64,000 nt of DNA from Candidatus Omnitrophota bacterium (GTDB lineage: Bacteria; Omnitrophota; Omnitrophia; Omnitrophales; Aquincolibacteriaceae). A model generated the notes under the pieces. It had not been told where the DNA came from, searched no databases, and saw only the letters and a list, made by a program, of their open reading frames with translations. A program made the translations under genes and the position numbers. The stretch covers positions 38,516 through 102,515 of the forward strand of contig JBAYVF010000004.1 of the NCBI GenBank assembly GCA_041674705.1. Direction: 5' to 3'. Shown here in pieces: positions 39,529-54,829 of the stretch (within the stretch, counting starts at the first letter, position 1; each line of letters begins with the position of its first letter).

Positions 39529-41670
39529 ATGTGCGAAGATAAGGCCTGTCAGTGCAGTTCTAAAAATGTGGATGTGCCGAAGATTTTTGGAAGTAACGTT
39601 TTTAATGATCGGACCATGAGAGAACGTCTCCCCAAAGAGACCTATAAAGCTCTCAAGAAAACGATCCAGCAAGGACTTCCGCTTTCGCCCGAGGTGGCCA
39701 ATGTGGTTGCCAATGCGATGAAGGATTGGGCTATTGAAAAAGGTGCGACGCATTACACCCATTGGTTTCAGCCGCTCACTGGCCGTACCGCGGAAAAACA
39801 TGATTCTTTTATCTCTCCGACCGACGATGGTAGCGTGATCATGGAGTTCTCCGGGAAGCAATTGGCTCAAGGTGAACCAGATGCATCGTCTTTTCCGAGC
39901 GGGGGTCTTCGCTCCACATTTGAAGCGCGTGGCTATACGGCGTGGGATTGCACCTCTCCCGCATTCCTCAAAGAGGATGCTTCGGGGAATGTGACTCTTG
40001 CCATTCCGACGGCTTTTTGTTCTTATACGAGCGAAGCGCTTGATAAAAAAACGCCGCTTCTTCGTTCCATGGAAGCAGTTTCCAAACAGGCCATTCGCGT
40101 TTTAAAAGCCCTCGGCAACAAAACCGCAAAGCGCGTGACCTCGACGGTCGGTCCTGAGCAGGAATATTTCCTGATCGACAAGACCTGCTATGAAAAACGT
40201 CTCGATCTGATCGTTTCCGGGAGGACGCTTTTCGGCGCCCCTTCGCCCAAGGGACAGGAGTTGGAAGATCAGTATTTTGGCGCGATCAAAGATCGTATTG
40301 CCGATTTCATGAGGGATCTGGATATCGAACTTTGGAAGATGGGGATCTCTTCCAAGACCAAGCACAACGAAGTGGCGCCCGCGCAGTATGAAATGGCGCC
40401 GATCTATTCCACGACCAACATCGCGGCGGATCACAATCAACTTGTGATGGAAACCATGCAGAAAGTGGCGCTTCGCCACGGCCTTGTGTGCCTCCTTCAT
40501 GAGAAGCCGTTTGCGGGCGTGAATGGTTCTGGCAAGCATAACAACTGGTCGCTTTCGACCGACGATGGACAAAATCTTCTTGAGCCGGGGAAGACGCCTT
40601 CTGAGAACGAGCAGTTCTTGATCTTTGTAAGCGCCCTTCTCATGGCAGTGGATCGTCATGCTGACAAGCTTCGCGCGAGTTGCGGCAATCCCGGGAATGA
40701 TCTACGGCTCGGCGCGAACGAAGCTCCTCCTGCCATTATTTCGGTTTTTATGGGGGAAGAGTTCACGGAGATTTTGGAAGGTATCGCTAAGGGGAAAAAA
40801 GTGGAGTCCCGTGGCCAGAGTTTTCTTCATATCGGGGTCGATGCCTTACCTCCGCTCCCGAAGGACAATACCGATCGTAACCGCACATCGCCTTTCGCGT
40901 TCACGGGGAACAAGTTCGAATTCCGCATGGTTGGCTCCTCGGCCTCCATTTCGGGACCGAATATCGTGATCAATACTATTGTTGCGGAAGCGTTGGATGA
41001 GATTGCGACGCGTCTTGAAAAGGCCGGCAAGAACGGTCTGAACAAAGAAGCAACCGCAATCGTTCGCGACGCAGTGAAAAAGCATGGGCGTATCATTTTT
41101 AACGGGAACAACTACTCCGATGAGTGGGTTGCAGAAGCCAAGAAGCGCGGTCTGCCGAACATCAAGACCGGCATCGAAGCTCTGGGCTACATGGCGACGC
41201 CTCAGGCAGAGAAGCTCTTCGACAAGTACCAGGTGCTTTCTCCCAAGGAGCTCCATTCCCGTTATGAGATCTACTTGGAAGCCTATGTAAAGCATGTGAA
41301 TATCGAAGCTCAGGCATCCGTCCAGATGGTCAAGCGGCTCTTTATGCCTGCAGGGATAAAGTTTGCCGCCGAGCTCGCAGGGGGGATCGGAGCTTTAAAA
41401 TCAGCTGCGGCTTCGGTGACGGTCCAGAAAGCATTGCTCACAACTGTGAGCGGCCTTTTATCAACCGCTTCGGAAAAGCTTGCGGTACTTGAAGCTTCAA
41501 TCGATAAGGCGCACCATGTATCGGATGTGGCCAAACGTGCCGAGGCATTCCGAGACAAAGTCGTTGTGGTGATGAATGCTCTTCGCAAGGACATCGATGC
41601 GCTTGAAGGCGTGACTCCGACTGAAATTTGGCCGGTTCCCACTTACGCGGAGATGCTCTTCAAGTTGTAA
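39529..41670 (+). CDS. glnN: Glutamine synthetase type III
   Basis: 713 aa, the size typical of GSIII. The catalytic region shows the Gln-synt_C hallmark residues of a type III GS. Confidence 0.8.
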
Positions 41671-41848
41671 GGCGCGATTTTAAGCGCACTTATCTGGTTC
41701 GACATAGCTTACCACCTTGAGTGAAGTCGAAGGGCTGAGCAAGCCCGAAGGGCGCGCCGAAGGATATCCTTCGACTCCTTCGCAAAAGGCTCACTCGCTC
41801 AGGATGATTAGGGTTGGTGTTACCAACCCTAAACAATCAGGGCAAGGC

Positions 41849-41888
41849 AGGCGGGTTTCCTCATCCCCTGAGGGACCCGCCTTTTTTT
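41849..41888 (+). terminator. Rho-independent terminator of glnN
   Basis: AGGCGGGT...ACCCGCC stem followed by TTTTTTT. It is preceded by three further hairpins (41745-41795, and TAGGGTTGGT-gtt-ACCAACCCTA at about 41805-41828). Confidence 0.6.
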
Positions 41889-41962
41889 ATTGAGACTGTC
41901 CTGATGTTCTCGCAATAAATTCCCGCAAAAATACACACATCTTTCGGCCCATTCACTCGATT

Positions 41963-41978
41963 TGGCATGGCTCTTGCA
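41963..41978 (+). promoter_or_regulatory. Sigma54 promoter (TGGCAT-N5-TTGCA) for amt1-glnK1
   Basis: Exact -24/-12 consensus and spacing. Confidence 0.6.
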
Positions 41979-42080
41979 CCTATATGATGGCTCTAGAGTA
42001 CGAGTGGTTTTTATAGGCATAAAAATACAAAAATGTGCGACAAATTCGTGGAGAATCAAACCTTTGAAAGGGAGGAGCAA

Positions 42081-43412
42081 ATGATGAAAAAACTAAAGAA
42101 GTGGTTTTTAGGAATAACCGGGTTTATGGCTCTCATGGGAATTTCAAGGCTGGCCATGGCGGCGGACGGGGTCGTTCCGGCCATTAATACGGGCGATACG
42201 GCGTGGGTGCTGATGTCTGCGGCGTTCGTTTTCCTGATGACCCCGGGCCTAGCATTCTTCTACGGCGGCCTAGTTCGCAAAAAGAACATGCTTTCGGTGC
42301 TCATGCAATGTTTTATGCTGATGTGCATCATCACGCTTCAATGGGTGATCTTTGGCTACAGCCTTTCGTTCGGGCCGGATATCAAAGGAATGATCGGAAG
42401 CTTGAGCTGGGCGGGCCTGCACGGCGTCGGGATAACGCCGTTCGCGGATTATTCAGCCACGGTTCCGCATCAAGCCTTCATGATCTATCAAGCGATGTTT
42501 GCCATTATCACGCCGGGACTGATCCTGGGCGCTTTCGCGGAGCGTATGAAATTTTCCGCATTTGTTGTCTTCTCGCTCCTCTGGGCGACCTTTGTTTATG
42601 ATCCCGTTTGCCACTGGGTGTGGGGCGTGGGCGGTTTCTTGAGAAACATGGGAGCGCTTGATTTTGCCGGAGGCACAGTCGTTCACATTAATGCGGGTGT
42701 TGCGGCTCTTGCCTGCGCGCTAGTGCTAGGGAAAAGAAAAGGTTATCCCAGCCATATGTCACCTCCGCACAATCTTCCGTTTGCTGTGCTCGGCGCGGGG
42801 TTGTTGTGGTTCGGCTGGTTCGGGTTCAATGGAGGAAGTGCCCTGGGAGCTAACGGTCTTGCCACAAGCGCCCTTGTGGTGACCCATGTGGCCGCCGCTG
42901 CCGCAGGTCTGACCTGGTCATTGATCGAATGGAAGATTAGCTCGAAGCCGACCATGCTTGGCATGATCACGGGAGCTGTTGCTGGGCTTGTTGCTATTAC
43001 GCCGGCCGCGGGATTTGTCGGCCCCATGGATGCTATTTGGATCGGGATTGGGGTTTCCGTGATTTGTTATTTCTTTGTTGCTGTGGTGAAAAGCAAGTTT
43101 GGCTATGACGATTCTCTGGATGCTTTTGGTGTGCATGGGGTTGGCGGGATCTGGGGAGCTTTGGCCACGGGACTCTGGGCCACAAAGGAGATTAATCCGG
43201 CCGGGAATAATGGGCTTTTTTACGGGAATCCTGGACTCCTGTGGATTCAGCTCAAGGCGGTAGTGATTACCATTGTTTATTCGTTCATCGTTTCGTTTGT
43301 TCTTCTGAAGATCGTAGACGTTCTGCTGGGTCTACGCGTTTCGGAGGACGAAGAGCGCATCGGGCTGGACCTCACGCAACATCGTGAATCTGGCTACACC
43401 ATCTTAGATTAA
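42081..43412 (+). CDS. amt: Ammonium transporter (copy 1)
   Basis: Amt/MEP signature D(F)AGG.VVH. Signal peptide. 11 TM helices. Start moved to the ATG after the GGGAGG Shine-Dalgarno. Confidence 0.9.
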   Translation: MMKKLKKWFLGITGFMALMGISRLAMAADGVVPAINTGDTAWVLMSAAFVFLMTPGLAFFYGGLVRKKNMLSVLMQCFMLMCIITLQWVIFGYSLSFGPDIKGMIGSLSWAGLHGVGITPFADYSATVPHQAFMIYQAMFAIITPGLILGAFAERMKFSAFVVFSLLWATFVYDPVCHWVWGVGGFLRNMGALDFAGGTVVHINAGVAALACALVLGKRKGYPSHMSPPHNLPFAVLGAGLLWFGWFGFNGGSALGANGLATSALVVTHVAAAAAGLTWSLIEWKISSKPTMLGMITGAVAGLVAITPAAGFVGPMDAIWIGIGVSVICYFFVAVVKSKFGYDDSLDAFGVHGVGGIWGALATGLWATKEINPAGNNGLFYGNPGLLWIQLKAVVITIVYSFIVSFVLLKIVDVLLGLRVSEDEERIGLDLTQHRESGYTILD

Positions 43413-43424
43413 AGGAGGAATGCC

Positions 43425-43766
43425 ATGAAATATATTATCGCCGTGATCCAACCGGACCGGGTGGATGAAGTGCTCCGGATCCTCGAAGAAAAAGAGATCC
43501 ATCTTGTGACCGTAACTAATGTTCTTGGCCGCGGCCGGCAAAAGGGGATCTCCGAGGTTTACCGGGGCCATAAAGAGGGGGGGCGGCTGCTTCGAAAAGT
43601 GAAGCTCGAAATCGCGGTCAATGAAGCCTTTGTGAAGGCGACGGTCGATGCGATCAAAGAAGGTTCGAGGACGGGGCATATCGGGGACGGCAAGATCTTT
43701 GTGCTCGATCTCAAGGAATGCTTTCGAATTCGCACCGGGGAGATCGGCGAAGTCGCAATCGGATAA
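43425..43766 (+). CDS. glnK: Nitrogen regulatory protein P-II (copy 1)
   Basis: MKYIIAVIQPDR...GRGRQKG...EVYRG T-loop. Linked to amt. Confidence 0.9.
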   Translation: MKYIIAVIQPDRVDEVLRILEEKEIHLVTVTNVLGRGRQKGISEVYRGHKEGGRLLRKVKLEIAVNEAFVKATVDAIKEGSRTGHIGDGKIFVLDLKECFRIRTGEIGEVAIG

Positions 43767-43767
43767 A

Positions 43768-43826
43768 ACGCGGGGAACGGCGAGCGAGAAATATTAGTTT
43801 TTGCGTTCGGCGTTCCCCGTTTCCAG
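43768..43826 (+). terminator. Imperfect long hairpin (CGGGGAACGGCG.../...CGTTCGGCGTTCCCCG) after glnK1: possible terminator or enhancer site
   Basis: About 17-bp stem with 2 mismatches and an AT-rich loop. A short T-run follows. Confidence 0.4.
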
Positions 43827-43840
43827 GTTTTTCAACAACT

Positions 43841-43856
43841 TGGCACATCTCTTGCA
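43841..43856 (+). promoter_or_regulatory. Sigma54 promoter (TGGCAC-N5-TTGCA) for amt2-glnK2
   Basis: Perfect consensus. Confidence 0.65.
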
Positions 43857-43984
43857 CCATACCGTGAGAAGCTCTATCTCTGCATTCGGCTCAGAATAGA
43901 GATTTTTTTGCTACCTTAAAGTCTACAAAAATGTAGGACGAATTCGTCGCGAATAGGATCTGTCGACAAAAATGGAGGCGTTTG

Positions 43985-45313
43985 ATGCGAAAAAAAAGTA
44001 AGCTTTTTTGGGAAATTATTCTTTTCTTTGTTTTTCTGGGTTTATCGAAAATGGTATGGGCTGCAGACCCAGCGGTCCCGCCCGTTAGCGGCGGAGATAT
44101 CTCGTGGGTTCTTGTTTCCGCGGCTCTGGTATTTCTGATGACTCCCGGTTTGGCTTTTTTCTACGGCGGGCTCGTTCGTAAGAAGAATATGCTCTCGGTC
44201 CTGATGCAGTGCTTTATTTTGATATGCCTGATCACGCTTCAGTGGGTGCTTTTCGGCTATAGTTTGGCATTTGGTCCGGATGTGAAGGGGCTGATCGGCA
44301 ACTTGAGCTGGGCAGGGCTTCAGGGCGTGGGTCTGGATCCTTTTGCGGCTTATTCATCTACAATCCCGCATCAGCTTTTTATGATCTATCAAGCGATGTT
44401 CGCGATTATCACGCCGGGCTTGATCCTGGGGGCCTTCGCAGAGCGCATGAAATTCTCCGCATTTTGTATCTTCTCGCTTCTTTGGGCCACATTCGTTTAC
44501 GATCCCGTTTGCCACTGGATGTGGGGTGCGGGTGGTTTCCTGAGAGATATGGGGGCTCTTGATTTTGCGGGTGGGGTTGTGGTTCATATCAACGCCGGCA
44601 TTGCGGCTTTGGTTTGCGCGCTTGTGCTCGGTAAAAGAAAAGGCTATCCCAGTCATATGTCGCCTCCCCACAACCTGCCCTTTGCGGTTTTAGGTGCCGG
44701 GCTTCTTTGGTTCGGTTGGTTTGGGTTTAATGGAGGAAGTGCGTTAGGCGCCAATCGACTCGCCGTGAGCGCCATGGTCGTTTCTCACGTTGCCGGGGCA
44801 GCTGCCGGGCTGACTTGGGCGCTCCTGGAATGGAAGTTCAACTCTAAACCTACCATGCTCGGTATGATTACCGGCGCCGTCGCGGGACTTGCGACGATCA
44901 CCCCGGCAGCAGGCTTTGTGGGGCCGATCGATGCGATCTGGATAGGGGTTTTGGCTTCACTCGTCTGTTTCTTTTGTGTGGCGGTGGTTAAAGCCAAGTT
45001 CACTTACGATGATTCACTGGATGCTTTCGGAGTGCACGGGGTTGGCGGGATCGTGGGGACTTTGGCCACGGGACTCTGGGCGACAAAGGCCATCAATCCA
45101 GCCGGGAATAACGGACTTTTTTACGGAAATCCGGGTCTGTTTCTAATTCAGCTGAAGGCTGTGGGGATCACCATTGTTTATTCATTTGTCGTCTCCTGGG
45201 TCCTTCTGAAGCTTGTGGATGTTTTTATAGGTCTGCGTGTTTCTGAGGACGGCGAACGCATCGGGCTGGATCTCACGCAGCATCGTGAATCTGCCTACAC
45301 CATGTTGGATTAA
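43985..45313 (+). CDS. amt: Ammonium transporter (copy 2)
   Basis: Paralogue of copy 1, about 75% identical. GGAGG Shine-Dalgarno before ATG 43985. Confidence 0.9.
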   Translation: MRKKSKLFWEIILFFVFLGLSKMVWAADPAVPPVSGGDISWVLVSAALVFLMTPGLAFFYGGLVRKKNMLSVLMQCFILICLITLQWVLFGYSLAFGPDVKGLIGNLSWAGLQGVGLDPFAAYSSTIPHQLFMIYQAMFAIITPGLILGAFAERMKFSAFCIFSLLWATFVYDPVCHWMWGAGGFLRDMGALDFAGGVVVHINAGIAALVCALVLGKRKGYPSHMSPPHNLPFAVLGAGLLWFGWFGFNGGSALGANRLAVSAMVVSHVAGAAAGLTWALLEWKFNSKPTMLGMITGAVAGLATITPAAGFVGPIDAIWIGVLASLVCFFCVAVVKAKFTYDDSLDAFGVHGVGGIVGTLATGLWATKAINPAGNNGLFYGNPGLFLIQLKAVGITIVYSFVVSWVLLKLVDVFIGLRVSEDGERIGLDLTQHRESAYTMLD

Positions 45314-45416
45314 CCCCGTTAGAGGTTCAGATGTCTCATAACGGACGTTCTAGAAAGTATGCGAATCAATACATCAAAAACACATCCCGTGAAAGTGGGT
45401 TAGATCTCTAACGGGG
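45314..45416 (+). promoter_or_regulatory. Second copy of the CCCCGTTAGAG...CTCTAACGGGG bracketed leader, between amt2 and glnK2
   Basis: Arms at 45314-45324 (starting right after the amt2 stop) and 45406-45416. The interior differs from the gatC copy. GGAGG Shine-Dalgarno and the glnK2 ATG follow. Confidence 0.5.
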
Positions 45417-45430
45417 TAAAGGAGGAACCT

Positions 45431-45772
45431 ATGCGCTACATCATTGCGATCATTCAACCAGATCGATTGGACGAAGTTTTGAGAATCTTGGAAGAAAAAG
45501 AGATTCATCTCGTGACGGTCACAAGCGTTCTGGGGCGCGGACGTCAAAAGGGGATTTCGGAAGTTTATCGCGGTCATAAGGAAAATGGACGTCTCTTGAA
45601 AAAAATAAAACTGGAGATCGCCGTGAATGAAGAGTTCGTGAAAGCTACCGTCGACGCCATTATCCAAGGTGCTCGAACTAATCACATCGGGGATGGAAAG
45701 ATCTTCGTTCTTGATCTAAAAGAATGTTTTCGTATCCGTACCGGTGAGACCGGGAAAATAGCGATCGGTTAA
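45431..45772 (+). CDS. glnK: Nitrogen regulatory protein P-II (copy 2)
   Basis: Near-identical to copy 1. Confidence 0.9.
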   Translation: MRYIIAIIQPDRLDEVLRILEEKEIHLVTVTSVLGRGRQKGISEVYRGHKENGRLLKKIKLEIAVNEEFVKATVDAIIQGARTNHIGDGKIFVLDLKECFRIRTGETGKIAIG

Positions 45773-45790
45773 ACCCAACTAAAAAGAGTA

Positions 45791-45854
45791 TCCCGGCCCA
45801 AAATCGCCTCCCCTGGCGATTGAGAAGTACCCCTTCTCGGGGCCGGGATTTTTC
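45791..45854 (+). terminator. Repeated 64-nt compound terminator element (copy 1)
   Basis: TCCCGGCCC...nested AATCGCC-tcccctg-GCGATT...GGGGCCGGGA followed by TTTTT. Near-identical to 47610-47674. Confidence 0.55.
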
Positions 45855-45976
45855 TTGCCCTGTTTTTTTGGATGTCGGGTGTTGGATCATTCCTAAAAAC
45901 TACAAAATTGTAATACCTCAAAATGTTTCTGCCTTCTCAAAATAAAATCCTACTGTAAGCCCGATTTTTCCTAACT

Positions 45977-45992
45977 TGGCATGATATATGCA
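45977..45992 (+). promoter_or_regulatory. Sigma54-type promoter (TGGCAT-N5-ATGCA) upstream of the Fis-like gene and porin; CTACAAAATTGTAA motif at 45900-45913
   Basis: GG-N10-GC spacing conserved. The motif lies about 65 bp upstream. Confidence 0.5.
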
Positions 45993-46035
45993 CTGTTTCC
46001 AATGGGTTCATTAACAGCCAATCGAAATTCAAGGT

Positions 46036-46242
46036 TTGAAGCAAATGGAGAATTTTAAACTGGATCATGGAGCTCTTCCAAATGAAGGGAGGCTTCTAAA
46101 TGCTGTTCATGAGCTTGAAAGGCAGATGATTGAGAAGGCCATGGCGCGCTCCGGGGGAAACCAACGCGTGGCCTCGGAAATCCTGGGGATCACGGAGCGT
46201 ATGCTGGGATATCGCTTAAAACATTACGGAATGAATTTTTAG
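46036..46242 (+). CDS. Stand-alone Fis-family HTH DNA-binding protein (68 aa)
   Basis: C-terminal NQRVASEILGITERMLGYRLKHYGM resembles the Fis/NtrC C-terminal HTH. Confidence 0.6.
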   Translation: MKQMENFKLDHGALPNEGRLLNAVHELERQMIEKAMARSGGNQRVASEILGITERMLGYRLKHYGMNF

Positions 46243-46274
46243 GAAGCATTTTAGAAATACAACAACTGGAGGAA

Positions 46275-47573
46275 GTGATGGAAAAAATATTAAAAAGGTT
46301 TTTAAGTGTGTGCCTGATCGGAATGTGTTTTTGCCCCGGGGTGGTTTTTGGCGAAAGCCTTGAGACCGCGCCCGGGGTCCAGGCAACCGAGATCGCTCCG
46401 GCGCCGGTAGCCTCTCCGGACCGAGGGCTCTTGATGAGCCTTCTGGATTGGGCGGGGATCGGACAGACCCTGGACAAAGCCGGCATCAAGATCTACGGCT
46501 ATTCCGAAGCCGGGATCATGTTCGATCCCACGGCGGGCCGGAACGGGGCGGGTCCGACTTTTCTGGGATTCAATTATTTCAAAAACACCCCGATGCTCAA
46601 CAAGATCAGTTTGAACGTTGAGCGCACGGTCGATCCGTCGAAGAAGGCGTTTGACGTGGGTTTCCGTCTCGAGGGCATCTGGGGAACGGACGCGAAGTTC
46701 ATCCACGCGAACGGTATCGCGGACACACAAACGGGTCGCTATCAGATGGATCCTTTGCAGGCCTATGTCGACGTCACGACGCCTTACCTTCCGATTCGGA
46801 TCCGCGCCGGAAAATGGATCGAACTGGCCGGCTTTGAACATTTCAGCGCCAATATCTACGGTGCGTTCGGTGATCCTGCCAGGGCGTTTTATTCTTACAG
46901 TTATCAGTTCCTCTACGCGGAGCCTGGGACCCAAACGGGTGTTTTGGGGACTTATGTCCTGAATCCGCAATGGTCTTTTGATCTTGGGATCACGGATGGC
47001 TGGAATCAATGTACCCGGGATGCCAACCATTACGCGGACATCCTGGGGCGTATTACGTTTACGCCCAATGATAAGACCGCGTTTATTTTCACAATGACCG
47101 AAGGCCCGGAGTATCCGACGGGGGTAGGGCGTGGATTGCCTCCCGGTGACAATAAAGACTGGTGGACGGCCATGGATTTCGTAGCCACCCGCAAGGTGAC
47201 CGAAAAATTGAGTTTGGGTTTGGGAGGCGATTTTGTGAATGCTCCGCACATTCCCGGATTGTCCAAAGGCGCCAAACAATGGGGAGGTGTGGCCGGGTAT
47301 GCCAGCTACGCTCTTAACAAGTTTGTCACGGCGAATTCGCGACTCGAGTGGTATATCGACGCGGCCAACGGGTTTTCGAACGGAGCGTCCACGCGCGCCA
47401 ATTACTATGAAGCGACCTTGGGCCCGGCTATCAAGCCCTTCGCGAACAAGAAGTTCTTGTCTCAGGTGATCGTGAGACCGGAACTTCGCTTTGATTTTTC
47501 AAATCAGCCGGTTTTTGCCAAAGGCGACAAGATGCAGGTGTCGTTAAGCGCGGATATTCTGTATACCTTTTAG
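46275..47573 (+). CDS. Outer-membrane beta-barrel porin (sigma54/nitrogen-regulon associated)
   Basis: Signal peptide (MMEKILKRFLSVCLIGMCFCPGVVFG). Alternating amphipathic beta strands. C-terminal ...ADILYTF with terminal aromatic residue. Confidence 0.65.
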   Translation: MMEKILKRFLSVCLIGMCFCPGVVFGESLETAPGVQATEIAPAPVASPDRGLLMSLLDWAGIGQTLDKAGIKIYGYSEAGIMFDPTAGRNGAGPTFLGFNYFKNTPMLNKISLNVERTVDPSKKAFDVGFRLEGIWGTDAKFIHANGIADTQTGRYQMDPLQAYVDVTTPYLPIRIRAGKWIELAGFEHFSANIYGAFGDPARAFYSYSYQFLYAEPGTQTGVLGTYVLNPQWSFDLGITDGWNQCTRDANHYADILGRITFTPNDKTAFIFTMTEGPEYPTGVGRGLPPGDNKDWWTAMDFVATRKVTEKLSLGLGGDFVNAPHIPGLSKGAKQWGGVAGYASYALNKFVTANSRLEWYIDAANGFSNGASTRANYYEATLGPAIKPFANKKFLSQVIVRPELRFDFSNQPVFAKGDKMQVSLSADILYTF

Positions 47574-47826: not shown

Positions 47827-48954
47827 GTGAAAAAAGCAATACTAGCGCTCGAGGATGGTGTGTGGTTCGAAGGCGAGGGTTTTGGCGCCGACGGTGAGGT
47901 ATTTGGGGAAGTTGTTTTCAATACGGGCTTAAGCGGCTATCAAGAGATCCTGACCGATCCCTCCTACAAAGGTCAGATGGTCTGCATGACCTATCCCCAT
48001 ATCGGCAACTACGGAATCAATACAGCCGATAGTGAATCCTCCCGGCCCTGGGTCGAAGGTTTTATCATCAAGGAACTGAGCCCGGTGGTGAGCAATTACC
48101 GCTCCGAGATGACGCTCGATCAATACCTCAAGAAATACAACATCCTCGGCATCCAGGGGATCGATACCCGCAAGCTTGTGAAACATCTCCGGACCGTGGG
48201 CGCCAAGAAAGCCGTTATTTCCACCCAGGAACTCGATCCCAAAAAACTCATCCAAAAAGCCAAGAAATCCCGCGGCATCGAAGGCGTCGATCTGGTCAAA
48301 GAAGTGATGTGCCAGAAACCTTATGTCTTTGAAGATGTCATGCCGATGGAATTTGCATGGGGTGATCAGCAAAAAAAAGGATTCAAGGTCGTCGCTGTCG
48401 ATAGCGGTGTGAAATGGAATATCCTCCGGAAACTCAACCAGCATGGCTTCCATGTTCAGGTGGTTCCGGCGAGCGCGACCGCCGAAGAGATCCTGGCGTA
48501 TAAACCGGACGGTCTTTTTCTCGCGAACGGTCCCGGCGATCCGGCGGCTGTGAAATATCTGGTTGCAACGGTGCGGAAACTCATCGGCAAACTGCCGATG
48601 TTCGGTATTTGTCTCGGGCATCAGATGATCGGGCAGGCGCTCGGGGGGAAGACCTCCAAGCTCAAATTCGGGCACCATGGCAATAACCAGCCGGTCATGG
48701 ACCTCAAGACACGGAAGATCGAGATCACTTCCCAAAACCACAACTTTGTGGTGAATATCGAGTCGCTTCCCAAAGACGAAGTGGAAATGACGCACATCAA
48801 TTTGAATGATAAAACGCTCGAGGGATTCCGGCACAAGAAATACCCGATCTTCTGCGTGCAGTATCACCCCGAGAATGCCCCGGGGCCGCACGACAGCGAC
48901 TATCTCTTTTCCCGTTTTTATGACCTTATAGAGAAGAGCCAAAAGAATGCCTAA
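47827..48954 (+). CDS. carA: Carbamoyl-phosphate synthase small (glutaminase) subunit
   Basis: GATase class I triad region (GICLGHQ). GTG start. Confidence 0.95.
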
Positions 48955-51900
48955 AAGAACCGATATCAAAAAGATCCTCATCATCGGGTCCGGGCCGATC
49001 ATCATCGGTCAGGCGTGCGAATTCGATTATTCGGGCGCGCAGGCCGTCAAGGCCTTGAAAGAAGAAGGCTACAAGGTGGCCCTCATTAATTCCAATCCCG
49101 CGACCATCATGACCGATCCTGATCTTGCGGACGCGACCTACATTGAGCCGCTCACCGTGGAATTTCTCGAGAAGGTCATTATCAAGGAAAAGCCTGATGC
49201 CGTTCTGCCGACCATGGGCGGACAAACAGGATTGAATCTCGCCGTTGAGGCCTATGAAGCGGGCGTATTCAAGCGCCATAATGTCGAAATGATCGGCGCG
49301 AAGTACGAAGCGATCAAGAAGGCCGAGAACCGCGAGGAATTCAAGCGCGCCATGCAAAAGATCGGCCTGGATCTTCCGAAAAGCGATTTCGCGTATTCCC
49401 TGGAAGAAGCCGAGAAGGTGGCTGAAAAAATTGGTTATCCGGTCATTGTGCGGGCGAGTTTTACGCTCGGCGGTTCCGGAAGCGGCGTTTGCCATAATAT
49501 CGAGGAACTCCGGACAACGGCGCGCACAGGGTTGGATTACAGCCGGGTTCACGAGATTCTGATCGAAGAATCGATCGTGGGATGGAAAGAATATGAACTT
49601 GAGGTGATGCGCGACACGAATGACAATTTCGTGGTTATCTGCTCGATCGAAAATCTGGACCCCATGGGCGTTCATACGGGTGATTCCATCACCGTGGCGC
49701 CGGCGCAGACCTTGACGGACCGGGAATACCAGCGGATGCGCGATGCCGCCCGCAAAGTGATGTCTGAGATCGGGATCGAGACCGGAGGCTCGAACGTTCA
49801 GTTCGCGGTCGATCCCAAAACGGGCCGCATGGTCATCATTGAGATGAATCCTCGTGTTTCCAGGTCTTCGGCCTTGGCTTCCAAAGCCACGGGTTTTCCG
49901 ATTGCGAAGTTTGCGGCCAAGCTCGCGGTCGGATTGACACTGGATGAGATCCCCAACGACATTACCAAATACACGCCGGCCTCGTTTGAACCTTCAATCG
50001 ATTATTGCGTGGTCAAGATCCCGCGCTTTGCTTTCGAAAAATTTGAGGGTGTGGATGACCGCCTGTCGACCCAAATGAAATCCGTCGGCGAGGTCATGTC
50101 GATTGGCCGCACCTTTAAGGAAGCGTTCCAGAAAGGCTTGCGTTCGCTGGAGACGAAGCGTTTCGGGTTCGGCGGCGATGGTAAAGACAAGATCTTCGAC
50201 CTCACGCTCAAAACGCGCGAAGCCTATCTCCAATTCCTTAAGACCGTCCCTCAGGACAAGGAACTTCGCGAGAAGATCTTTGCCTATGCGAAGATTCCCC
50301 GGGAAGACAGGATTTTTTATCTGAAATACGCGTATCTTGCCGGGTACACCACCGAAGAGATCTATAAAAAAACAGGGGTCGACCCGTGGTTTCTAGCGCA
50401 GCTTAAGCAGATCATTGATCTTGAAGGAGAATTGCTCGCCGCGCAGGGGAAGCTAAAGCAACAGGATGGGTTGATGCGAAAGGCCAAGCAATACGGATTT
50501 TCGGACCGGCAACTCGCATTTTATTGGGGGCTTCAGGAAAAAGACGTTCGCAAAAAACGTAAGGGCCTTGGGATCAAACCGGTCTATAAATTGGTGGATA
50601 CCTGCGCCGCGGAATTCAAGGCCTACACGCCTTACTTTTATTCAACCTATGAGGACGAGGACGAGGCGAATCCCAGCCGGAAAAAGAAGGTCATGATCCT
50701 GGGCGGCGGGCCGAACCGCATCGGGCAGGGGATCGAATTTGATTATTGCTGCGTCCACGCGGTCATGGCCCTGAAAAAAATGGGCTATGAGACGATCATG
50801 GTCAACTCCAACCCCGAGACCGTGAGTACGGATTATGACACTTCCGACAAACTTTTCTTCGAACCGCTCACGCTGGAAGATGTCCTTAATATTTATGAAA
50901 ATGAAAAACCGCTGGGCGTGATCCTGCAGCTTGGCGGTCAAACGCCCTTGAATCTTGCGAAGTCGCTTTTGGCGAACGGGGTCAAGATCCTCGGGACCTC
51001 GGTCGATGCGATCGATCGCGCCGAAGATCGCGACCGGTTCAAGAAGTTGCTTAAGAAGATCGGGCTTCGCCAGCCCGCCAACGGAATTGCGACAAGTCTG
51101 GAGGAAGCCCATCAGATCGCCAAAGAGATCGGATATCCGGTCGTCATTCGTCCGTCCTATGTGCTCGGCGGCCGCGCCATGGAGATCGTCTATGACCAGA
51201 CTTCGCTCAAAAAATATATGAAACATGCGGTCGAAGCCAGTGACGACCAGCCTGTGCTGATCGATAAATTCCTTGAGGATGCGACCGAGATGGATGTGGA
51301 TCTTATTTCCGACGGGAAGACCGCCGTGGTGGGTTCTGTGATGGAACACATCGAGGAAGCGGGCATCCATTCCGGAGATAGCGCGTCCGTTATTCCGCCT
51401 TTTTCTATTTCCCGTGAGATTGTCGAGGAGATCGTCCAGAAGACCAAGCGGATCGCCAAAGAGCTCGGCGTGGTCGGGCTGATGAACGTTCAATATGCGA
51501 TCCAGAAGGACCAGGTTTTTTGCCTGGAGGTGAACCCGCGTGCTTCACGGACGGTGCCGTTTGTGAGTAAAACGATCGGGGTGCCGCTTGCAAAACTTGC
51601 CGCGCAGCTCATGGTCGGGAAAACGCTCAAAGAACTGAAATTCACCGAAGAGATCGTGCCGAAACATGTGGCCGTCAAAGAATCTGTTTTTCCTTTCGTG
51701 AAATTCCCGGGAGTCGACATTATCCTTTCTCCGGAAATGAAATCCACCGGCGAAGTCATGGGGATCGACAAAGATTTCGGGAAGGCTTTCTACAAATCCC
51801 AGGACGCGGCCATGTCTCATATCCCGCGCAAAGGAACAGTATTTATTAGCGTAAAAGATACAGATAAACCCAAGATCGCCGAGATCGCCCGGGAGTTTCA

Positions 51901-52240
51901 CAAGCTGGGCCTCAAAATCGTCTCAACCAAGGGGACGGCCAAGGTCCTGAAAGAGGCGGGCGTGCCTGCTGAAGAAGTTCTCAAGATGGTGGAGGGAAGC
52001 CCCAATCTCTCGCATTGGATCAAAGAGAAGAAAATGGACCTCATCATTAATACGCCGAGCGGAAAAGGCCCCATGCTCGATGAAGGCAAGATCCGATCGC
52101 TCGCCGTTTCCTTCAATATCCCGTGTATTACCACGCTGAGCGCTGCGCGTGCGGCCGTTCGCGGTCTTCAAGCTGTCCGGGATGATGACCTCGATGTGAA
52201 GTCGATCCAAGACTATCACGGCGTTAAAGGTAAACCCTAA
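48947..52240 (+). CDS. carB: Carbamoyl-phosphate synthase large subunit
   Basis: 1097 aa. Duplicated ATP-grasp halves and MGS-like C-terminal domain. Confidence 0.95.
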
Positions 52241-52252
52241 AAGGAGAGTTCC

Positions 52253-54829
52253 TTGATCAGCTCGGGAGTCAAAGGTCTCGATAAAGTAACCACAGGATTG
52301 CGCCTCGGCGATAATGTTGTTTGGCAGGTCGACGCGATCCACCATTACGCGGAATTTGTCGCCCCCTTCGTCCAAAAAGCCCTCGAAGAAAAAAGAAAAC
52401 TTGTCTATATCCGCTTTGCCAATCATGAGCCTCTCCTGAAGGAAGACAAGAACATCACCGTCTACAAGCTCGACCCGCATATGGGCTTCGAGCCTTTTTC
52501 CGCCGCGATCAACAGTATCGCGAAAAAAGAAGGCGAAGGCGTTTTTTATGTTTTTGACTGCCTCTCGGACCTGCTTTCGGCTTGGGCCAATGACCTCATG
52601 ATCGGGAATTTTTTCAAAATCACCTGTCCCTACCTTTATGAGTTGAACACGATCGCTTATTTTGCTCTTTTGCGAAGCCGGCATTCGTTCAAGACCGTCG
52701 CGCGTATCCGGGACACGACCCAGCTTTTGATCGATGTGTATTATTACCATGGGGATTGTTACATCCATCTCCTGAAGGTCTGGAACCGGTATTCGCCGAC
52801 GATGTTCTTGCCCCATGTCCGGCAGAAGGAAAAATTTATTCCCATCGCCAATAGCGCCGATACGGCCAAGGTCTTTTCCGAGATCTTCAAAAAAGGAGCC
52901 AAGAGCGCGAAGCGGAATCTGGATTACTGGGACCAGCTTTTCCTGAAGGCGGAAGACCTTGCAGGCAAAAAAAGCGGTTCTAAAGAAGTGAAAGAACAAA
53001 TGATGGATCAGTTGTGCCGGATCGTATTGGCCCGCGACGAAAAAATGCTGGCTCTGGCCAAGGAAAATTTTGGGTTGGAAGATCTCCTGAATATCAAGTC
53101 GAGGATGATTGGGACCGGGTTCATCGGAGGGAAGTCGGTGGGGATGCTGATCGCCCGGAGCATTTTGCAGAGAGAGAAATCTTTGGAGACGGAAAAACTT
53201 TTTGAGCCGCATGACTCTTTTTACATCGGTTCGGATGTCTTCTACACTTATATCGTAGAAAATGGCCTGTGGAAAGACCACATGGCGCAGAGGACTCCGG
53301 AAGGTTATTTGGAAGTGGCCGGAAAACTTCACGAGGAGTTGGTGCGAGGCACCTTTCCCGAAGAGATCAAGGACCAGTTCCTCCAGATGATCGAGTATTT
53401 CGGACAGTCGCCGATCATCGTTCGTTCCAGCAGTTTGCTCGAAGACAGTTACGGGAATGCCTTTGCCGGGAAATACGAAAGTGTTTTTCTCGTTAACCAG
53501 GGAACGCCCGATGAACGTTATGCGAAATTCGTCGAAGCCGTTCGCCGGATCTATGCTTCTACGATGAACCCCGACGCCTTGGCCTACCGGTTGCAGCGCG
53601 GATTGGATCAGATGGATGAGCAAATGGCGCTCCTGGTCCAGCGGGTCTCAGGCGCCTACCATCAGGACTATTTTTTCCCGGATGCCGCCGGCGTCGGGAT
53701 CTCGCAGAACGTTTTCGTCTGGAAAAGCGGCCTGGACCCTAAAGCCGGCATGTTGCGCTTGGTCTTAGGGTTAGGGACCCGAGCGGTCAATCGCGTGGAG
53801 GGGGATTACCCGCGGGTCGTGGCTTTGGATGAGCCGCTTCTCAAGGCTTATGCGGGGATGGCGGCAACCCAGAGGTTTTCGCAGCACGACGTGGATGTCT
53901 TGAACGTTAAAGAAAATACCCTGCAAACGATCTCTTTCAGGAAATTGCTGAAGGAGAAAGTAGAAATGCCTCTGGATCTCCTGGCGATCAAAGATCACGA
54001 GGTCGCGGAAAAATTGCAGGCGGCGGGGTCGGACGAGGAGCCCTGGATCATCACTTTCGACAAACTTGTTTCCGAAACAACGTTTGCCTCGATCATGCAA
54101 AAAATCCTCAAGGTCCTGGAAACAGCTTATGGATATCCCGTCGATATCGAATTCACGGTCAATTTCAAAAAGAACGGCGCGTTCCAGGTGAACCTGCTTC
54201 AATGCCGGCCGATGCAGACCAAGGGCTTGGGGCATCGCGTCAAGATCCCGAAAACGATTTCCAAAGACAAGGTTCTTTTCCAGTCGAAAGGAAACTTTCT
54301 GGGCGGGAACATTTTGCAGGCCATTGATAAGATCATTTACGTGGACCCGGAAGCCTATTGCGGGCTGGAAACTCAGTCGGAGCGTTATGATATTGCGCGC
54401 GTGGTCGGAGAGCTCAATCGCAAGATCGAGAGTAAGGAAAAAACGGCCGTCATGCTTTTGGGCCCCGGCCGGTGGGGGACCACCACGCCGTCTTTAGGGG
54501 TGCCGGTTTCTTTTGCCGAGATCAATCATATTACCGTTCTTGGAGAGATCGCGTTTGTGACGGAGAATGCATCTCCCGAGATCTCCTTCGGGACCCATTT
54601 CTTTCAGGATCTTGTGGAGACGGGGATCTTCTACGTAGCGCTTTTCCCGGGTGATTCAGGCGTTTCGATGGATCAGAAATTTTTCGATGCGATCCCCAAG
54701 ACGCTGAAGAAGCTGGCGCCGGAATACAAAAAATATGAGCACGTGGTCAAGGTATTCGACGTGAAGAAGAACGACCTCAAGATCGCGGCAGACATCCTTT
54801 CTCAAAAAGTCGTCTGCTACTTTGGGTAA
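52253..54829 (+). CDS. Hypothetical 858-aa fusion protein: Walker-A-less KaiC/RecA-like N-terminal domain plus PEP-utilising-enzyme N-terminal (PPDK_N, ATP-grasp-like) nucleotide-binding domain plus uncharacterised C-terminal region
   Basis: N-terminal ISSGVKGLDKVTTGLRLGDNVVWQVD matches the KaiC-type I-x-TG-x-GLD-x-L-GG-L pattern but has no GKT. Middle region has GFIGGKSVGMLIA and IIVRSSSLLEDSYGNAFAGKYESV, matching PPDK_N/PEP synthase motifs. TTG start with AAGGAG Shine-Dalgarno 13 nt after the carB stop. Confidence 0.55.
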   Translation: MISSGVKGLDKVTTGLRLGDNVVWQVDAIHHYAEFVAPFVQKALEEKRKLVYIRFANHEPLLKEDKNITVYKLDPHMGFEPFSAAINSIAKKEGEGVFYVFDCLSDLLSAWANDLMIGNFFKITCPYLYELNTIAYFALLRSRHSFKTVARIRDTTQLLIDVYYYHGDCYIHLLKVWNRYSPTMFLPHVRQKEKFIPIANSADTAKVFSEIFKKGAKSAKRNLDYWDQLFLKAEDLAGKKSGSKEVKEQMMDQLCRIVLARDEKMLALAKENFGLEDLLNIKSRMIGTGFIGGKSVGMLIARSILQREKSLETEKLFEPHDSFYIGSDVFYTYIVENGLWKDHMAQRTPEGYLEVAGKLHEELVRGTFPEEIKDQFLQMIEYFGQSPIIVRSSSLLEDSYGNAFAGKYESVFLVNQGTPDERYAKFVEAVRRIYASTMNPDALAYRLQRGLDQMDEQMALLVQRVSGAYHQDYFFPDAAGVGISQNVFVWKSGLDPKAGMLRLVLGLGTRAVNRVEGDYPRVVALDEPLLKAYAGMAATQRFSQHDVDVLNVKENTLQTISFRKLLKEKVEMPLDLLAIKDHEVAEKLQAAGSDEEPWIITFDKLVSETTFASIMQKILKVLETAYGYPVDIEFTVNFKKNGAFQVNLLQCRPMQTKGLGHRVKIPKTISKDKVLFQSKGNFLGGNILQAIDKIIYVDPEAYCGLETQSERYDIARVVGELNRKIESKEKTAVMLLGPGRWGTTTPSLGVPVSFAEINHITVLGEIAFVTENASPEISFGTHFFQDLVETGIFYVALFPGDSGVSMDQKFFDAIPKTLKKLAPEYKKYEHVVKVFDVKKNDLKIAADILSQKVVCYFG

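What the first reader, a model, noticed from the sequence alone, without database searches (positions are those of the whole stretch)
52253..54829. Unusual 858-aa fusion of a P-loop-less KaiC/RecA-like domain with a PEP-utilising-enzyme nucleotide-binding (PPDK_N) domain, translationally coupled to carB
The N-terminus follows the KaiC/RadA-type GLD...GG pattern but lacks Walker A, so it is probably a non-catalytic scaffold or sensor. The central region carries two PPDK_N motifs. These are GGKSVGML, which matches the GGKxAxL signature, and RSSSLLEDSYGNAFAGKYES, which matches RSSATAEDLPxASFAGQ. This implies ATP-dependent phosphotransfer. No phospho-His swivel or PEP-utiliser C-terminal domain is evident, and the last about 250 aa are unassigned. 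Its position 13 nt after carB with its own Shine-Dalgarno hints at a link to carbamoyl-phosphate, arginine or pyrimidine metabolism or its regulation. I do not recognise this architecture as a characterised family.
Basis: partly seen in the sequence, partly recalled or inferred. Interest (0 to 1): 0.65.

Follow-up and report, generated by a model that had tools for sequence, protein, structure and literature searches.

The report
Unstudied ATP enzyme beside nitrogen-assimilation genes
This gene encodes a member of a large, widespread but unstudied bacterial protein family that joins a dead KaiC-like sensor domain to an intact ATP-using phosphotransfer domain and a tail of unrecognised fold, and it sits next to the core nitrogen-assimilation genes in many phyla, so it is probably an overlooked component or regulator of nitrogen metabolism.

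Summary
The ORF is real: 52253-54829, + strand, 858 aa, TTG start with an AAGGAG Shine-Dalgarno, 12 nt after carB. Residues 291-670 are a PPDK_N ATP-grasp (Pfam E=1.7e-52) with its nucleotide- and phosphate-binding motifs invariant. Residues 1-215 are a KaiC-like fold (Foldseek E=2e-9) with no Walker A in any homolog, that is, an inactivated KaiC. The last ~190 aa form a well-predicted alpha/beta domain with invariant GPGRWG and GTHFFQD motifs. It has no Pfam or PDB match and is not a swivel phospho-His domain; three tests were negative.

It is not a PEP synthase, although relatives are annotated that way. The family is very large (over 8000 clusters at 90% identity, at least 599 species, about 13 phyla). 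The link to carB is only one case of a wider one: 57 of 76 informative loci carry GDH, GOGAT, GS, amt/P-II, carAB, pyrG, purF or nrpR within three genes.

The ATP-grasp plus tail module occurs behind interchangeable accessory domains (inactivated KaiC, receiver, Polbeta nucleotidyltransferase). The same inactivated KaiC is fused to HTH regulators beside glutamate-synthase genes, and in six loci a NifA-type activator is co-operonic with the gene.

Best reading: a signal-controlled ATP-dependent phosphotransferase of the nitrogen-assimilation system. The substrate is unknown.

The parts
52253..54829 (+). Whole gene: 858-aa inactivated-KaiC + PPDK_N ATP-grasp + unassigned C-terminal domain protein (NCBI MFA7254966.1, annotated 'PEP/pyruvate-binding domain-containing protein')
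52241..52246 (+). Shine-Dalgarno AAGGAG, directly after the carB stop (52238-52240) and 6 nt before the TTG start
52253..52897 (+). N-domain, residues 1-215: inactivated KaiC/RecA-like domain. GDNVVW (52307-52324) replaces the Walker A region. A Walker-B-like FDCLS lies at 52553-52567. Many polar residues are invariant.
   Evidence: Foldseek to KaiC. No Walker A, and D20, N21, Q25, E80, D102, R141, H172, K175, R179, H188 invariant in 57/57. Weak Pfam hits to PAXNEB in 14/56 members and MEDS in 13/56. hhalign 99.8% to KaiC-annotated regulators.
52898..53122 (+). Helical linker, residues 216-290. Its distal part is also present ahead of the ATP-grasp in the N-domain-less first module of the Geobacter-type long forms.
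   Evidence: secondary structure of the AF2 model; alignment to P0013 residues 12-50
53123..54262 (+). PPDK_N-type ATP-grasp domain, residues 291-670. Motifs: GGK (53126-53134), RSSSLLED (53423-53446), DIEFT (54143-54157), LQCRP (54197-54211).
   Evidence: Pfam E=1.7e-52. Foldseek to rifampin phosphotransferase 5hv1 E=2.9e-12 and HpeI 9goj E=1.5e-11. Motif-by-motif alignment to PEP synthases 8a8e/2ols, HpeI and RPH. K294, R391, E633, Q650, R652 are 57/57; D631 is 48 D and 9 E.
54263..54826 (+). C-terminal alpha/beta domain, residues 671-858, with no recognised family or fold. Motifs: GPGRWGT (54461-54481) and GTHFFQD (54590-54610; invariant His782 at the start of a helix, after a low-confidence loop).
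   Evidence: AF2 domain model pLDDT 86, pTM 0.87. No Foldseek hit in PDB (best E=0.034). No Pfam hit in 57 members. No PDB sequence hit. hhalign to real swivel domains 0.5%. R740, H782, D786 are 57/57. His kept in distant subfamilies. 1841 representative clusters carry the domain.
47827..52240 (+). carA (47827-48954) and carB (48947-52240), immediately upstream and co-directional
   Evidence: Pfam
39574..47573 (+). Upstream co-directional nitrogen cluster: glnN (GS-III) 39574-41661, amt 42156-43400, P-II 43425-43763, amt 43982-45313, P-II 45431-45772, BBP2 porin 46275-47573
   Evidence: tblastn with cluster representatives; Pfam

Best explanation
The gene encodes a member of a large uncharacterised family of ATP-dependent phosphotransferases that belongs to the nitrogen (glutamate/glutamine) assimilation system.

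Shown:
(1) Residues 291-670 are a PPDK/PEP-synthase-type ATP-grasp domain with every nucleotide- and phosphate-binding motif conserved, so it very probably binds and cleaves ATP.
(2) Residues 1-215 are a KaiC-like fold that has lost its P-loop, an inactivated KaiC. The same domain serves as the input domain of HTH-cupin transcription factors in glutamate-synthase/nrpR loci.
(3) Residues 671-858 are a family-specific domain that always follows this ATP-grasp. It carries an invariant glycine-rich GPGRWG loop and an invariant His in GTHFFQD.
(4) The [ATP-grasp + tail] module is combined with interchangeable accessory domains: inactivated KaiC, response-regulator receiver, Polbeta nucleotidyltransferase, or none.
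(5) The gene is embedded in GDH, GOGAT, GS, Amt/P-II, CarAB, PyrG, PurF and NrpR neighbourhoods across about nine phyla. In six loci it is co-operonic with a NifA-type sigma-54 activator.

Inferred:
- The inactivated KaiC domain reads a nitrogen-status signal, either a metabolite such as 2-oxoglutarate, glutamine or glutamate, or a partner protein, and so controls the catalytic module.
- The ATP-grasp transfers phosphoryl or pyrophosphoryl from ATP to His782 of the tail domain. The tail would be a non-homologous functional replacement of the swivel phospho-His domain found in all characterised PPDK_N enzymes.
- The phosphoryl group then passes to an acceptor.
- The acceptor is unknown. The context favours either a nitrogen-assimilation enzyme or regulator (GDH, GOGAT, P-II, the NifA-type activator) or a Glu/Gln-type metabolite.
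For: Domain identities.

Catalytic competence of the ATP-grasp: K294, R391, E633, Q650, R652 are invariant in 57 species-level genomes, and they align with the VRSSxxED / DIEW / QxRP motifs of solved PEP synthases, HpeI and RPH.

Inactivated KaiC as an input domain:
- no Walker A in 0/56 and 0/105 sequences;
- hhalign 99.8% to the N-domain of KaiC-HTH_3-Cupin_2 regulators;
- those regulators sit next to Glu_synthase-domain genes and nrpR, and in Nitrospirota are divergent from a target-family gene;
- MEDS and other inactivated KaiC domains are recognised signalling domains (PMC5847659).

Modular architecture typical of signalling output enzymes:
- REC-fused paralogs keep GGK, VRSSGLLED, LQMRP, GPGRWGS and GTHFF;
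- Polbeta-NTase-fused variants exist;
- N-domain-less modules exist.

Tail-domain His: 57/57 invariant, and retained where flanking residues drift.

Context:
- 57 of 76 informative loci have a nitrogen gene within three genes, and about 45-48 have one directly adjacent;
- gdh is in 32 loci from 9 phyla and GOGAT in 28 loci from at least 7 phyla;
- gdh adjacency recurs for the REC subfamily and the NTase subfamily;
- a NifA-type GAF-sigma54-HTH activator lies 3-5 nt upstream in six loci;
- the window itself reads glnN-amt-PII-amt-PII-porin-carA-carB-target.
Against: - There is no biochemical, genetic or expression evidence at all.
- The tail domain is not homologous to any known phospho-carrier domain, so His782 as acceptor rests only on conservation and position.
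- I could not read the model coordinates to check whether His782 can reach the ATP site.
- All characterised PPDK_N enzymes phosphorylate small molecules or glucans rather than proteins. Tight operon spacing with gltBD and carAB (11-15 nt) would also suit a metabolic enzyme or subunit.
- The Geobacter-type double-module forms show no nitrogen context.
- No sigma-54 promoter or NrpR operator was found upstream.
- About a quarter of loci show no nitrogen gene nearby.
Confidence: 0.55

Rival explanations
1. A purely metabolic small-molecule kinase or dikinase acting on a Glu/Gln/2-oxoglutarate-type metabolite or on ammonia. It would be analogous to Campylobacter Cj1418, the ATP-dependent L-glutamine kinase that was once annotated as a PEP synthase. 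The N-domain would act as substrate-binding or oligomerisation domain rather than as a signal sensor.
For: - All characterised members of the PPDK_N superfamily phosphorylate small molecules or glucans. The best structural matches are rifampin phosphotransferase and HpeI.
- Cj1418 shows the superfamily can act on glutamine (PMC10971088).
- The neighbours all make or use Glu/Gln.
- Operon-like 11-15 nt spacing after gltD and carB.
Against: - The interchangeable REC, inactivated-KaiC and NTase accessory domains and the co-operonic NifA-type activator point to signalling.
- The association is with many different nitrogen genes and regulators rather than one pathway.
- No pathway partner such as a phosphatase or transferase is conserved next to it.
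- Similarity to Cj1418 itself was not tested, because no sequence was available here.
Confidence: 0.22
2. An ATP-grasp working without any phospho-His intermediate. Either it uses ligase-like acyl-phosphate chemistry on a carboxylate such as glutamate, or it is an ATP-binding, energy-sensing pseudo-enzyme. The tail domain would then be a substrate- or partner-binding module only.
For: - No recognisable swivel domain in cis.
- No swivel-motif ORF in any of 85 neighbourhoods.
- The wider ATP-grasp fold includes many glutamate ligases; this point is established knowledge and was not tested here.
Against: - The domain is specifically PPDK_N-type, whose known chemistry is transfer to His.
- The strictly invariant His, Arg and Asp in the tail domain suggest catalysis rather than binding alone.
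Confidence: 0.12
3. A dedicated accessory protein or regulator of carbamoyl-phosphate synthetase, tied to arginine or pyrimidine metabolism and translationally coupled to carB.
For: - A 12-nt gap after carB with its own SD in the window.
- carA/carB are in the locus in 13 of 85 cases, including the closest relative L005 and several other phyla.
Against: - carAB is a minority neighbour, against GDH in 32 loci and GOGAT in 28.
- In L005 (92% identical) the gene also precedes gltBD.
- Relatives at 79-80% identity (L006, L063) have no carAB nearby.
Confidence: 0.06
4. A genuine but truncated or degenerate PEP synthase or PPDK, as some database records label it.
For: Relatives are annotated 'phosphoenolpyruvate synthase', and there are partial NCBIfam hits to PEP synthase models.
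Against: - It scores 47.8-59.1 bits on the best PEP synthase equivalogs, whose cutoffs are 739.75-883.
- It lacks the swivel and PEP/pyruvate-binding domains.
- The full-length architecture is conserved over at least 599 species with strong purifying selection on the non-PEPS domains.
Confidence: 0.02

Closest known systems
PEP synthase / pyruvate phosphate dikinase (PpsA, PPDK)
   Same: Homologous N-terminal ATP-grasp nucleotide-binding domain (PF01326) with the GGK, RSSxxxED...FAG, DIEF/W and QxRP motifs.
   Different: No swivel phospho-His domain and no PEP/pyruvate TIM-barrel domain. It has an extra N-terminal inactivated KaiC domain and a C-terminal domain of its own. It fails all equivalog cutoffs.
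Rifampin phosphotransferase (RPH) and HpeI/AcvA-type ATP-grasp subunits of aromatic-compound dikinases
   Same: Best structural matches of the ATP-grasp part: 5hv1 E=2.9e-12 and 9goj E=1.5e-11. These are examples of PPDK_N domains recruited to non-PEP substrates.
   Different: RPH carries a C-terminal swivel His domain (5fbs residues 767-862). From my own recollection, not checked here, HpeI works with a separate swivel subunit. Neither a swivel in cis nor one in the neighbourhood is present here. NCBIfam Rph scores 33 bits against a cutoff of 999.
Cj1418, ATP-dependent L-glutamine kinase of Campylobacter jejuni
   Same: It was formerly annotated as a PEP synthase/PPDK and acts on glutamine (PMC10971088). 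That makes it a precedent for this superfamily acting at the Gln/Glu node.
   Different: It serves capsule modification, not central nitrogen assimilation. From my own recollection it uses a canonical phospho-His domain.
Inactivated KaiC-like signalling domains (iKaiC), including MEDS (PF14417) and Elp4/5/6-type P-loop-less RecA folds
   Same: KaiC-like fold without Walker A. Weak recurrent hits to MEDS, PAXNEB and Iki1. Used as an input domain fused to different outputs. The concept is described in PMC5847659.
   Different: It does not reach any Pfam gathering threshold on its own. It has its own conserved GDNVVW...FDCLS...CPYL signature. This subfamily is tied to nitrogen loci and fused to a PPDK_N module, a combination I did not find described in the searchable literature.
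Nitrogen-signal enzymes GlnD/GlnE, NtrB-NtrC, NifL-NifA and EI-Ntr (PtsP)
   Same: Functional analogy only: sensor domain plus nucleotide-dependent modifying enzyme encoded with nitrogen-assimilation genes. The resemblances are co-operonic pairing with a NifA-type activator and the occurrence of Polbeta-NTase fusions in the superfamily. From my own recollection, EI-Ntr couples a sensor domain to phospho-His transfer.
   Different: No homology to any of them apart from the generic NTase fold in some relatives. The chemistry and the target are unknown.

Membership tests
PPDK_N ATP-grasp superfamily (PF01326) | Pfam gathering score reached over the whole domain | tested here: met
   179.2 bits against a cutoff of 27, profile positions 4-325 of 328
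PPDK_N ATP-grasp superfamily (PF01326) | Conserved nucleotide- and phosphate-binding motifs (GGK, RSSxxxED/FAG, DxE, QxR) | tested here: met
   K294, R391, E633, Q650 and R652 are invariant in 57/57 and D631 is D or E. They align to the same motifs in PEPS 8a8e/2ols, HpeI 9goj and RPH 5hv6.
PEP synthase (PpsA; TIGR01418, NF005057, NF004881) | Equivalog score cutoff | tested here: not met
   59.1 against 883, 47.8 against 739.75, and 45.1 against 598 bits
PEP synthase / PPDK / RPH / PigC (all characterised PPDK_N enzymes) | Swivel phospho-His domain (PF00391, GG-x-[TS]-S-H-A-A motif) | tested here: not met
   No Pfam hit at E<=10 in 57 members. hhalign to five real swivel domains gives 0.5% probability. 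Foldseek of a pLDDT-86 model finds no swivel although many are in the PDB. No swivel motif in any neighbouring ORF.
PEP synthase / PPDK | C-terminal PEP/pyruvate-binding TIM-barrel domain (PF02896) | tested here: not met
   No Pfam hit. The tail is only 188 aa and alpha/beta, not a barrel.
KaiC / RecA-like ATPases (PF06745) | RecA/KaiC core fold | tested here: met
   Foldseek to many KaiC chains at E=2e-9 to 1e-7, about 220 columns, rmsd 3-4.6 A. hhalign 99.8% to a regulator domain that passes the PF06745 cutoff (31.5 against 26.6 bits).
KaiC / RecA-like ATPases (PF06745) | Walker A P-loop GxxxxGK[ST] | tested here: not met
   0/56 and 0/105 sequences. The region reads GDNVVWQVDAIHHY. It is therefore an inactivated KaiC, not an ATPase.
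KaiC / RecA-like ATPases (PF06745) | Pfam gathering score on the protein itself | tested here: not met
   No PF06745 hit for the window protein at E<=1 or for its N-domain at E<=10
MEDS sensory domain (PF14417) | Pfam model match | tested here: inconclusive
   13 of 56 members give weak hits (best E=0.0066), none for the window protein
L-glutamine kinase (Cj1418 type) | Sequence relationship to Cj1418 beyond the ATP-grasp, and glutamine-dependent ATP turnover | not testable with these tools
   No Cj1418 sequence or model was available here, and the primary paper is not held. The only basis is a review statement.

The most novel reading that the evidence does not exclude
The family is a previously unrecognised nitrogen-status signalling enzyme of anaerobic bacteria. 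An inactivated KaiC sensor would gate a PPDK-type ATP-grasp that loads a new, non-swivel phospho-His domain. That domain would then covalently modify a core nitrogen-assimilation protein (GDH, GOGAT, P-II or the co-operonic NifA-type activator). It would fill, in Omnitrophota, Planctomycetota, Syntrophia, Nitrospirota and others, the role that GlnD/GlnE/NtrB play in Proteobacteria.
Probability: 0.22. Interest if true: 0.88.

Novelty: new variant of a known kind. Interest (0 to 1): 0.7.

Why it matters
Regulation of nitrogen assimilation is understood mainly from Proteobacteria, Firmicutes, cyanobacteria and a few archaea. Here a conserved gene lies in the GS/GOGAT/GDH/Amt-P-II/NrpR loci of at least 599 species from about 13 phyla, with no assigned function and a misleading "PEP synthase" label. 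It is a concrete, testable candidate for a missing component.

It also matters for enzymology. Every characterised PPDK_N enzyme uses a swivel phospho-His domain. This large family has replaced it with a domain that has no detectable relative among solved structures (by Foldseek) yet carries an invariant His. That implies either a new phospho-carrier domain or a different use of this ATP-grasp.

Practically, the result corrects an annotation that would inflate predictions of gluconeogenic capacity in metagenome-assembled genomes.

Tried and rejected
1. Swivel hypothesis (my own). I proposed that the tail is a divergent swivel phospho-His domain, because GTHFFQDLVETGIFYVA resembles TSHAAIVARELGIPAVV. 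Rejected by Foldseek, by Pfam on 57 members and by hhalign against five real swivel domains (0.5%).

2. GDH-dikinase fusion. I briefly read the ~1000-aa ORFs in L074, L076 and L077 as such a fusion. This was wrong: they are REC-fused paralogs lying between gdh and the target.

3. Second family gene upstream. I first noted a second family gene directly upstream in Planctomycetota as an unfused version of the Geobacter double form. This was also wrong: it is a NifA-type GAF-sigma54-HTH activator, chained into the cluster through an over-extended ORF.

4. Promoter and operator scans. Scans for sigma-54 promoters (strict and relaxed) and for the GGAA-N6-TTCC NrpR operator upstream of target operons and of neighbouring nitrogen genes gave 0 hits. 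This is uninformative. The sigma-70 promoter and terminator scan around the gene was no better than shuffles.

5. PDB sequence searches. Searches with the whole protein and with the N- and C-domain profiles gave only weak ATP-grasp hits or noise.

6. Other accessory regions. The REC-paralog middle region and the N-terminus of the NTase-fused variants are not inactivated KaiC domains (hhalign 0.1-0.2%).

7. Long forms. The contexts of the Geobacter-type long forms are variable and show no nitrogen link.

8. Literature. Searches found no characterisation of the family.

Full report
**1. Observation**

carB ends with TAA at 52238-52240. AAGGAG follows at 52241-52246, and six bases later comes the TTG, so the gap is 12 nt. 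Homolog N-termini (consensus MxSTGxKGLD) agree with this start. The two quoted motifs are present: GGKSVGML at residues 292-299 and RSSSLLEDSYGNAFAGKYES at 391-410. The identical protein is already in NCBI as MFA7254966.1, [quoted passage not shown]. A cluster-mate is labelled "phosphoenolpyruvate synthase".

**2. Central domain**

Pfam finds one family, PPDK_N (PF01326): 179 bits against a cutoff of 27, E=1.7e-52, residues 291-670, covering nearly the whole profile. NCBIfam gives only partial matches to PEP synthase, PigC/RedH and rifampin phosphotransferase models. All are more than tenfold below their cutoffs, for example 47.8 against 739.75 bits for TIGR01418.

A family profile aligned to solved structures shows the motif correspondences VRSSxxxED...FAG, VQxM/V, DIEW/F and Q[SAC]RP with PEP synthases 8a8e and 2ols, HpeI 9goj and RPH 5hv6. 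The corresponding residues K294, R391, E633, Q650 and R652 are invariant in 57 species-level genomes, and D631 is D or E. The ATP-grasp is therefore very probably catalytically competent.

**3. N-terminal domain**

An AlphaFold2 model of the whole protein (53-sequence alignment, pLDDT 82, pTM 0.77) was searched against the PDB. After rifampin phosphotransferase (E=2.9e-12) and HpeI (E=1.5e-11), the next dozens of hits are KaiC chains at E=2e-9 to 1e-7, about 220 aligned columns, rmsd 3-4.6 A.

The domain passes no Pfam threshold by itself. Members give recurrent weak hits to the P-loop-less RecA-like families PAXNEB/Elp4 (14/56), MEDS (13/56) and Iki1/Elp5 (3/56).

A Walker A motif is absent from all 56 diverse and all 105 close homologs. 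The segment after the first strand reads GDNVVWQVDAIHHY. A Walker-B-like FDCLS and some ten polar residues are invariant, so the domain has a conserved functional surface although it is not an ATPase.

Sequence-level proof of KaiC ancestry comes by transitivity. Two loci carry 420-441-aa proteins whose N-terminal 190 residues align to this domain (hhalign 99.8%, E=1e-29). One of them passes the Pfam KaiC threshold. That family has 620 hits, mostly in Nitrospirota, and most of the 120 listed hits carry a precomputed PF06745 annotation. MEDS and similar domains are classed in the literature as inactivated KaiC signalling domains (PMC5847659).

**4. C-terminal domain**

Residues 671-858 were modelled alone (pLDDT 86.4, pTM 0.87). 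I suspected a divergent swivel phospho-His domain because of a motif-level resemblance around GTHFFQD. Three independent tests reject this:
- Foldseek finds nothing in the PDB (best E=0.034, TM about 0.3), although RPH, PEPS, PPDK and EI swivel domains are all there.
- None of 57 members hits any PEP-utiliser model at E<=10.
- hhalign against five genuine swivel domains gives 0.5% probability.

It carries two invariant motifs, GPGRWG[TS] and [FY]G[TS]HFFQD. R740, H782 and D786 are 57/57. The His sits at the start of a helix after a low-confidence loop. It is kept in distant subfamilies where its neighbours drift: GSHMF, GPHFF, GVHVF, GNHFF, ATHFF.

An exhaustive profile search finds the domain in 1841 representative clusters at 50% identity, always C-terminal to a PPDK_N domain in the proteins I examined.

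**5. Family and architectures**

They come from Omnitrophota, Planctomycetota, Desulfobacterota/Syntrophia, Bacillota, Spirochaetota, Acidobacteriota, Nitrospirota, Elusimicrobiota, Margulisiibacteriota, Aegiribacteria, Actinomycetota and others.

The [ATP-grasp + tail] module occurs in several architectures:
- with the inactivated KaiC domain (this family);
- without it, as ~610-645-aa proteins and as the first half of the ~1470-aa Geobacter-type double forms;
- behind a response-regulator receiver domain in Acidobacteriota paralogs, with all motifs retained;
- followed by a Polbeta-type nucleotidyltransferase domain.

A constant catalytic module behind interchangeable input or accessory domains is the usual signature of a signalling output enzyme. 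This last point is inference.

**6. Genomic context**

I clustered all ORFs from 85 loci without prior labels and annotated the recurrent clusters with Pfam. The counts per locus are:

| Neighbour | Loci | Typical position |
|---|---|---|
| glutamate dehydrogenase | 32 | adjacent, either strand |
| GOGAT large subunit (gltB) | 25 | mostly -2, same strand |
| GOGAT small subunit (gltD) | 20 | mostly -1, same strand, 11-15 nt gap |
| amt | 15 | variable |
| P-II | 13 | variable |
| carA | 11 | variable |
| carB | 10 | variable |
| pyrG | 10 | often +1 |
| nrpR | 9 | variable |
| GS-I (glnA) | 9 | variable |
| purF | 8 | variable |
| LysR | 7 | variable |
| GS-III (glnN) | 5 | variable |

Of 76 loci with enough flanking genes, 57 have one of these within three genes, and about 45-48 have one directly adjacent. 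Three of those loci were counted from a paralog next door.

With about a dozen such genes per genome, chance would give a few percent; this estimate is my inference. gdh linkage spans nine phyla and GOGAT at least seven, so shared ancestry does not explain it. gdh is also adjacent to the REC-fused and NTase-fused subfamilies.

In six Planctomycetota and Aegiribacteria loci a NifA-type GAF-sigma54-HTH activator is encoded 3-5 nt upstream of the gene, divergent from amt-PII-GS operons. In Nitrospirota the gene is divergent from the KaiC-like-HTH-cupin regulator, which is followed by a Glu_synthase-domain gene and nrpR. That regulator keeps this context where the target is absent.

The window fits the pattern: glnN, amt, P-II, amt, P-II, porin, carA, carB and the target all lie on one strand. 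The 92%-identical relative L005 has carAB upstream and gltBD downstream, while relatives at 79-80% identity have neither. The Geobacter-type double forms show no nitrogen context.

**7. Mechanism**

Shown:
- an intact PPDK-type ATP-grasp;
- a P-loop-less KaiC-like domain that is elsewhere an input domain of transcription factors in the same kind of locus;
- a conserved tail with an invariant His and a glycine-rich loop;
- modular architecture;
- a nitrogen-assimilation context that includes co-operonic regulators.

Inferred:
- a nitrogen-status signal, metabolite or partner protein, is read by the inactivated KaiC domain;
- the ATP-grasp transfers phosphoryl or pyrophosphoryl to His782 of the tail, which replaces the swivel domain functionally but not by homology;
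- the phosphoryl group goes on to an acceptor that I cannot identify.

I put 0.55 on this signal-controlled phosphotransferase reading. The rivals are:
- 0.22: a purely metabolic small-molecule kinase. The precedent is Cj1418 glutamine kinase (PMC10971088). Direct similarity to it was not testable here.
- 0.12: an ATP-grasp acting without a His intermediate.
- 0.06: a carB-specific accessory.
- 0.02: a true or degenerate PEP synthase.

**8. Comparison and novelty**

It works like a PPDK/PEPS/RPH-type enzyme in its ATP-binding half and is a member of the PF01326 superfamily. It is not a PEP synthase, PPDK, RPH or PigC, because the defining swivel and substrate domains were tested and are absent. 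Its N-domain belongs to the inactivated KaiC class.

I found no description of this family, of this domain combination or of its nitrogen linkage in the searchable literature. I rate it a new variant of a known kind. If the tail proves to be a new phospho-carrier domain acting on nitrogen-assimilation proteins, it would be a new kind of nitrogen-signalling system.

**9. Limits**

Noticed in passing
window 39574-45772: A co-directional nitrogen cluster with a type III glutamine synthetase (39574-41661) and two consecutive amt-P-II pairs (42156-43400 / 43425-43763 and 43982-45313 / 45431-45772). A BBP2 beta-barrel porin (46275-47573) follows, inserted before carA.
   Followed up: partly
L067:4815-6077(-), L051:17389-18714(-), L088/L089:7001-8263, L090/L091:7001-8254: A family of ~418-aa regulators built from a P-loop-less KaiC-like domain, HTH_3 and a cupin (620 hits, mainly Nitrospirota). 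They are consistently followed by a 534-aa Glu_synthase-domain gene and nrpR. Their function appears undescribed, and their KaiC-like domain is homologous to the target's N-domain.
   Followed up: partly
L011:8405-9982, L012:8390-9982, L019:8427-9983, L036:8405-9982, L038:8405-9982, L057:317-1891: A NifA-type enhancer-binding protein (GAF + Sigma54_activat + HTH_8, no receiver) is encoded 3-5 nt upstream of the target-family gene (4-nt overlap in L057). In L011, L012, L019 and L036 this pair is divergent from amt-PII-GS operons. The layout resembles a regulator pair such as nifLA or ntrBC.
   Followed up: partly
L074:6945-9959, L076:5591-8563, L077:2878-5964, L050:1-2256: Distant paralogs at 25-29% identity. 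The ~1000-aa L074, L076 and L077 proteins (Acidobacteriota) are built from a response-regulator receiver, ~300 aa of unknown region, PPDK_N and the same tail domain (GPGRWGS, GTHFF kept), and lie between gdh and the target-family gene. The L050 ORF runs off the contig end, and only its PPDK_N and tail could be seen.
   Followed up: partly
L092:5256-10195 (P0261); also P0269, P0151: A subfamily in which the module is followed by a C-terminal Polbeta-type nucleotidyltransferase domain with an apparently intact GS...DIDL motif. In L092 it is preceded by a 583-aa module-only paralog and by gdh. GlnD and GlnE use the same fold class (my recollection), but no specific similarity to them was seen.
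   Followed up: partly
P0013 (L002:8001-12419) and other ~1460-1500-aa Geobacter-type proteins: Double-module proteins: [ATP-grasp + tail] followed by [inactivated KaiC + ATP-grasp + tail]. In P0013 the second module has drifted motifs (RSS to RLS, GPGRWG to APGRLG), which suggests subfunctionalisation. Their genomic contexts are variable and not nitrogen-related.
   Followed up: partly
L022, L034, L050, L065 (cluster c19 with gltD-like and gdh genes): A DHODB_Fe-S_bind/NAD_binding_1 protein paired with a gltD-like gene next to gdh. It looks like an NfnAB-type NADPH-supplying module rather than GOGAT, so part of the 'gltD' count may be NfnB-like.
   Followed up: no
window 55375-55770 (+) and 57008-57742 (+): Two ORFs of 131 and 244 aa flanking lpxB (55780-56985, - strand) with no Pfam match. 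A 10-bp-stem hairpin lies at 55277-55299, between the target gene and the first of them.
   Followed up: no
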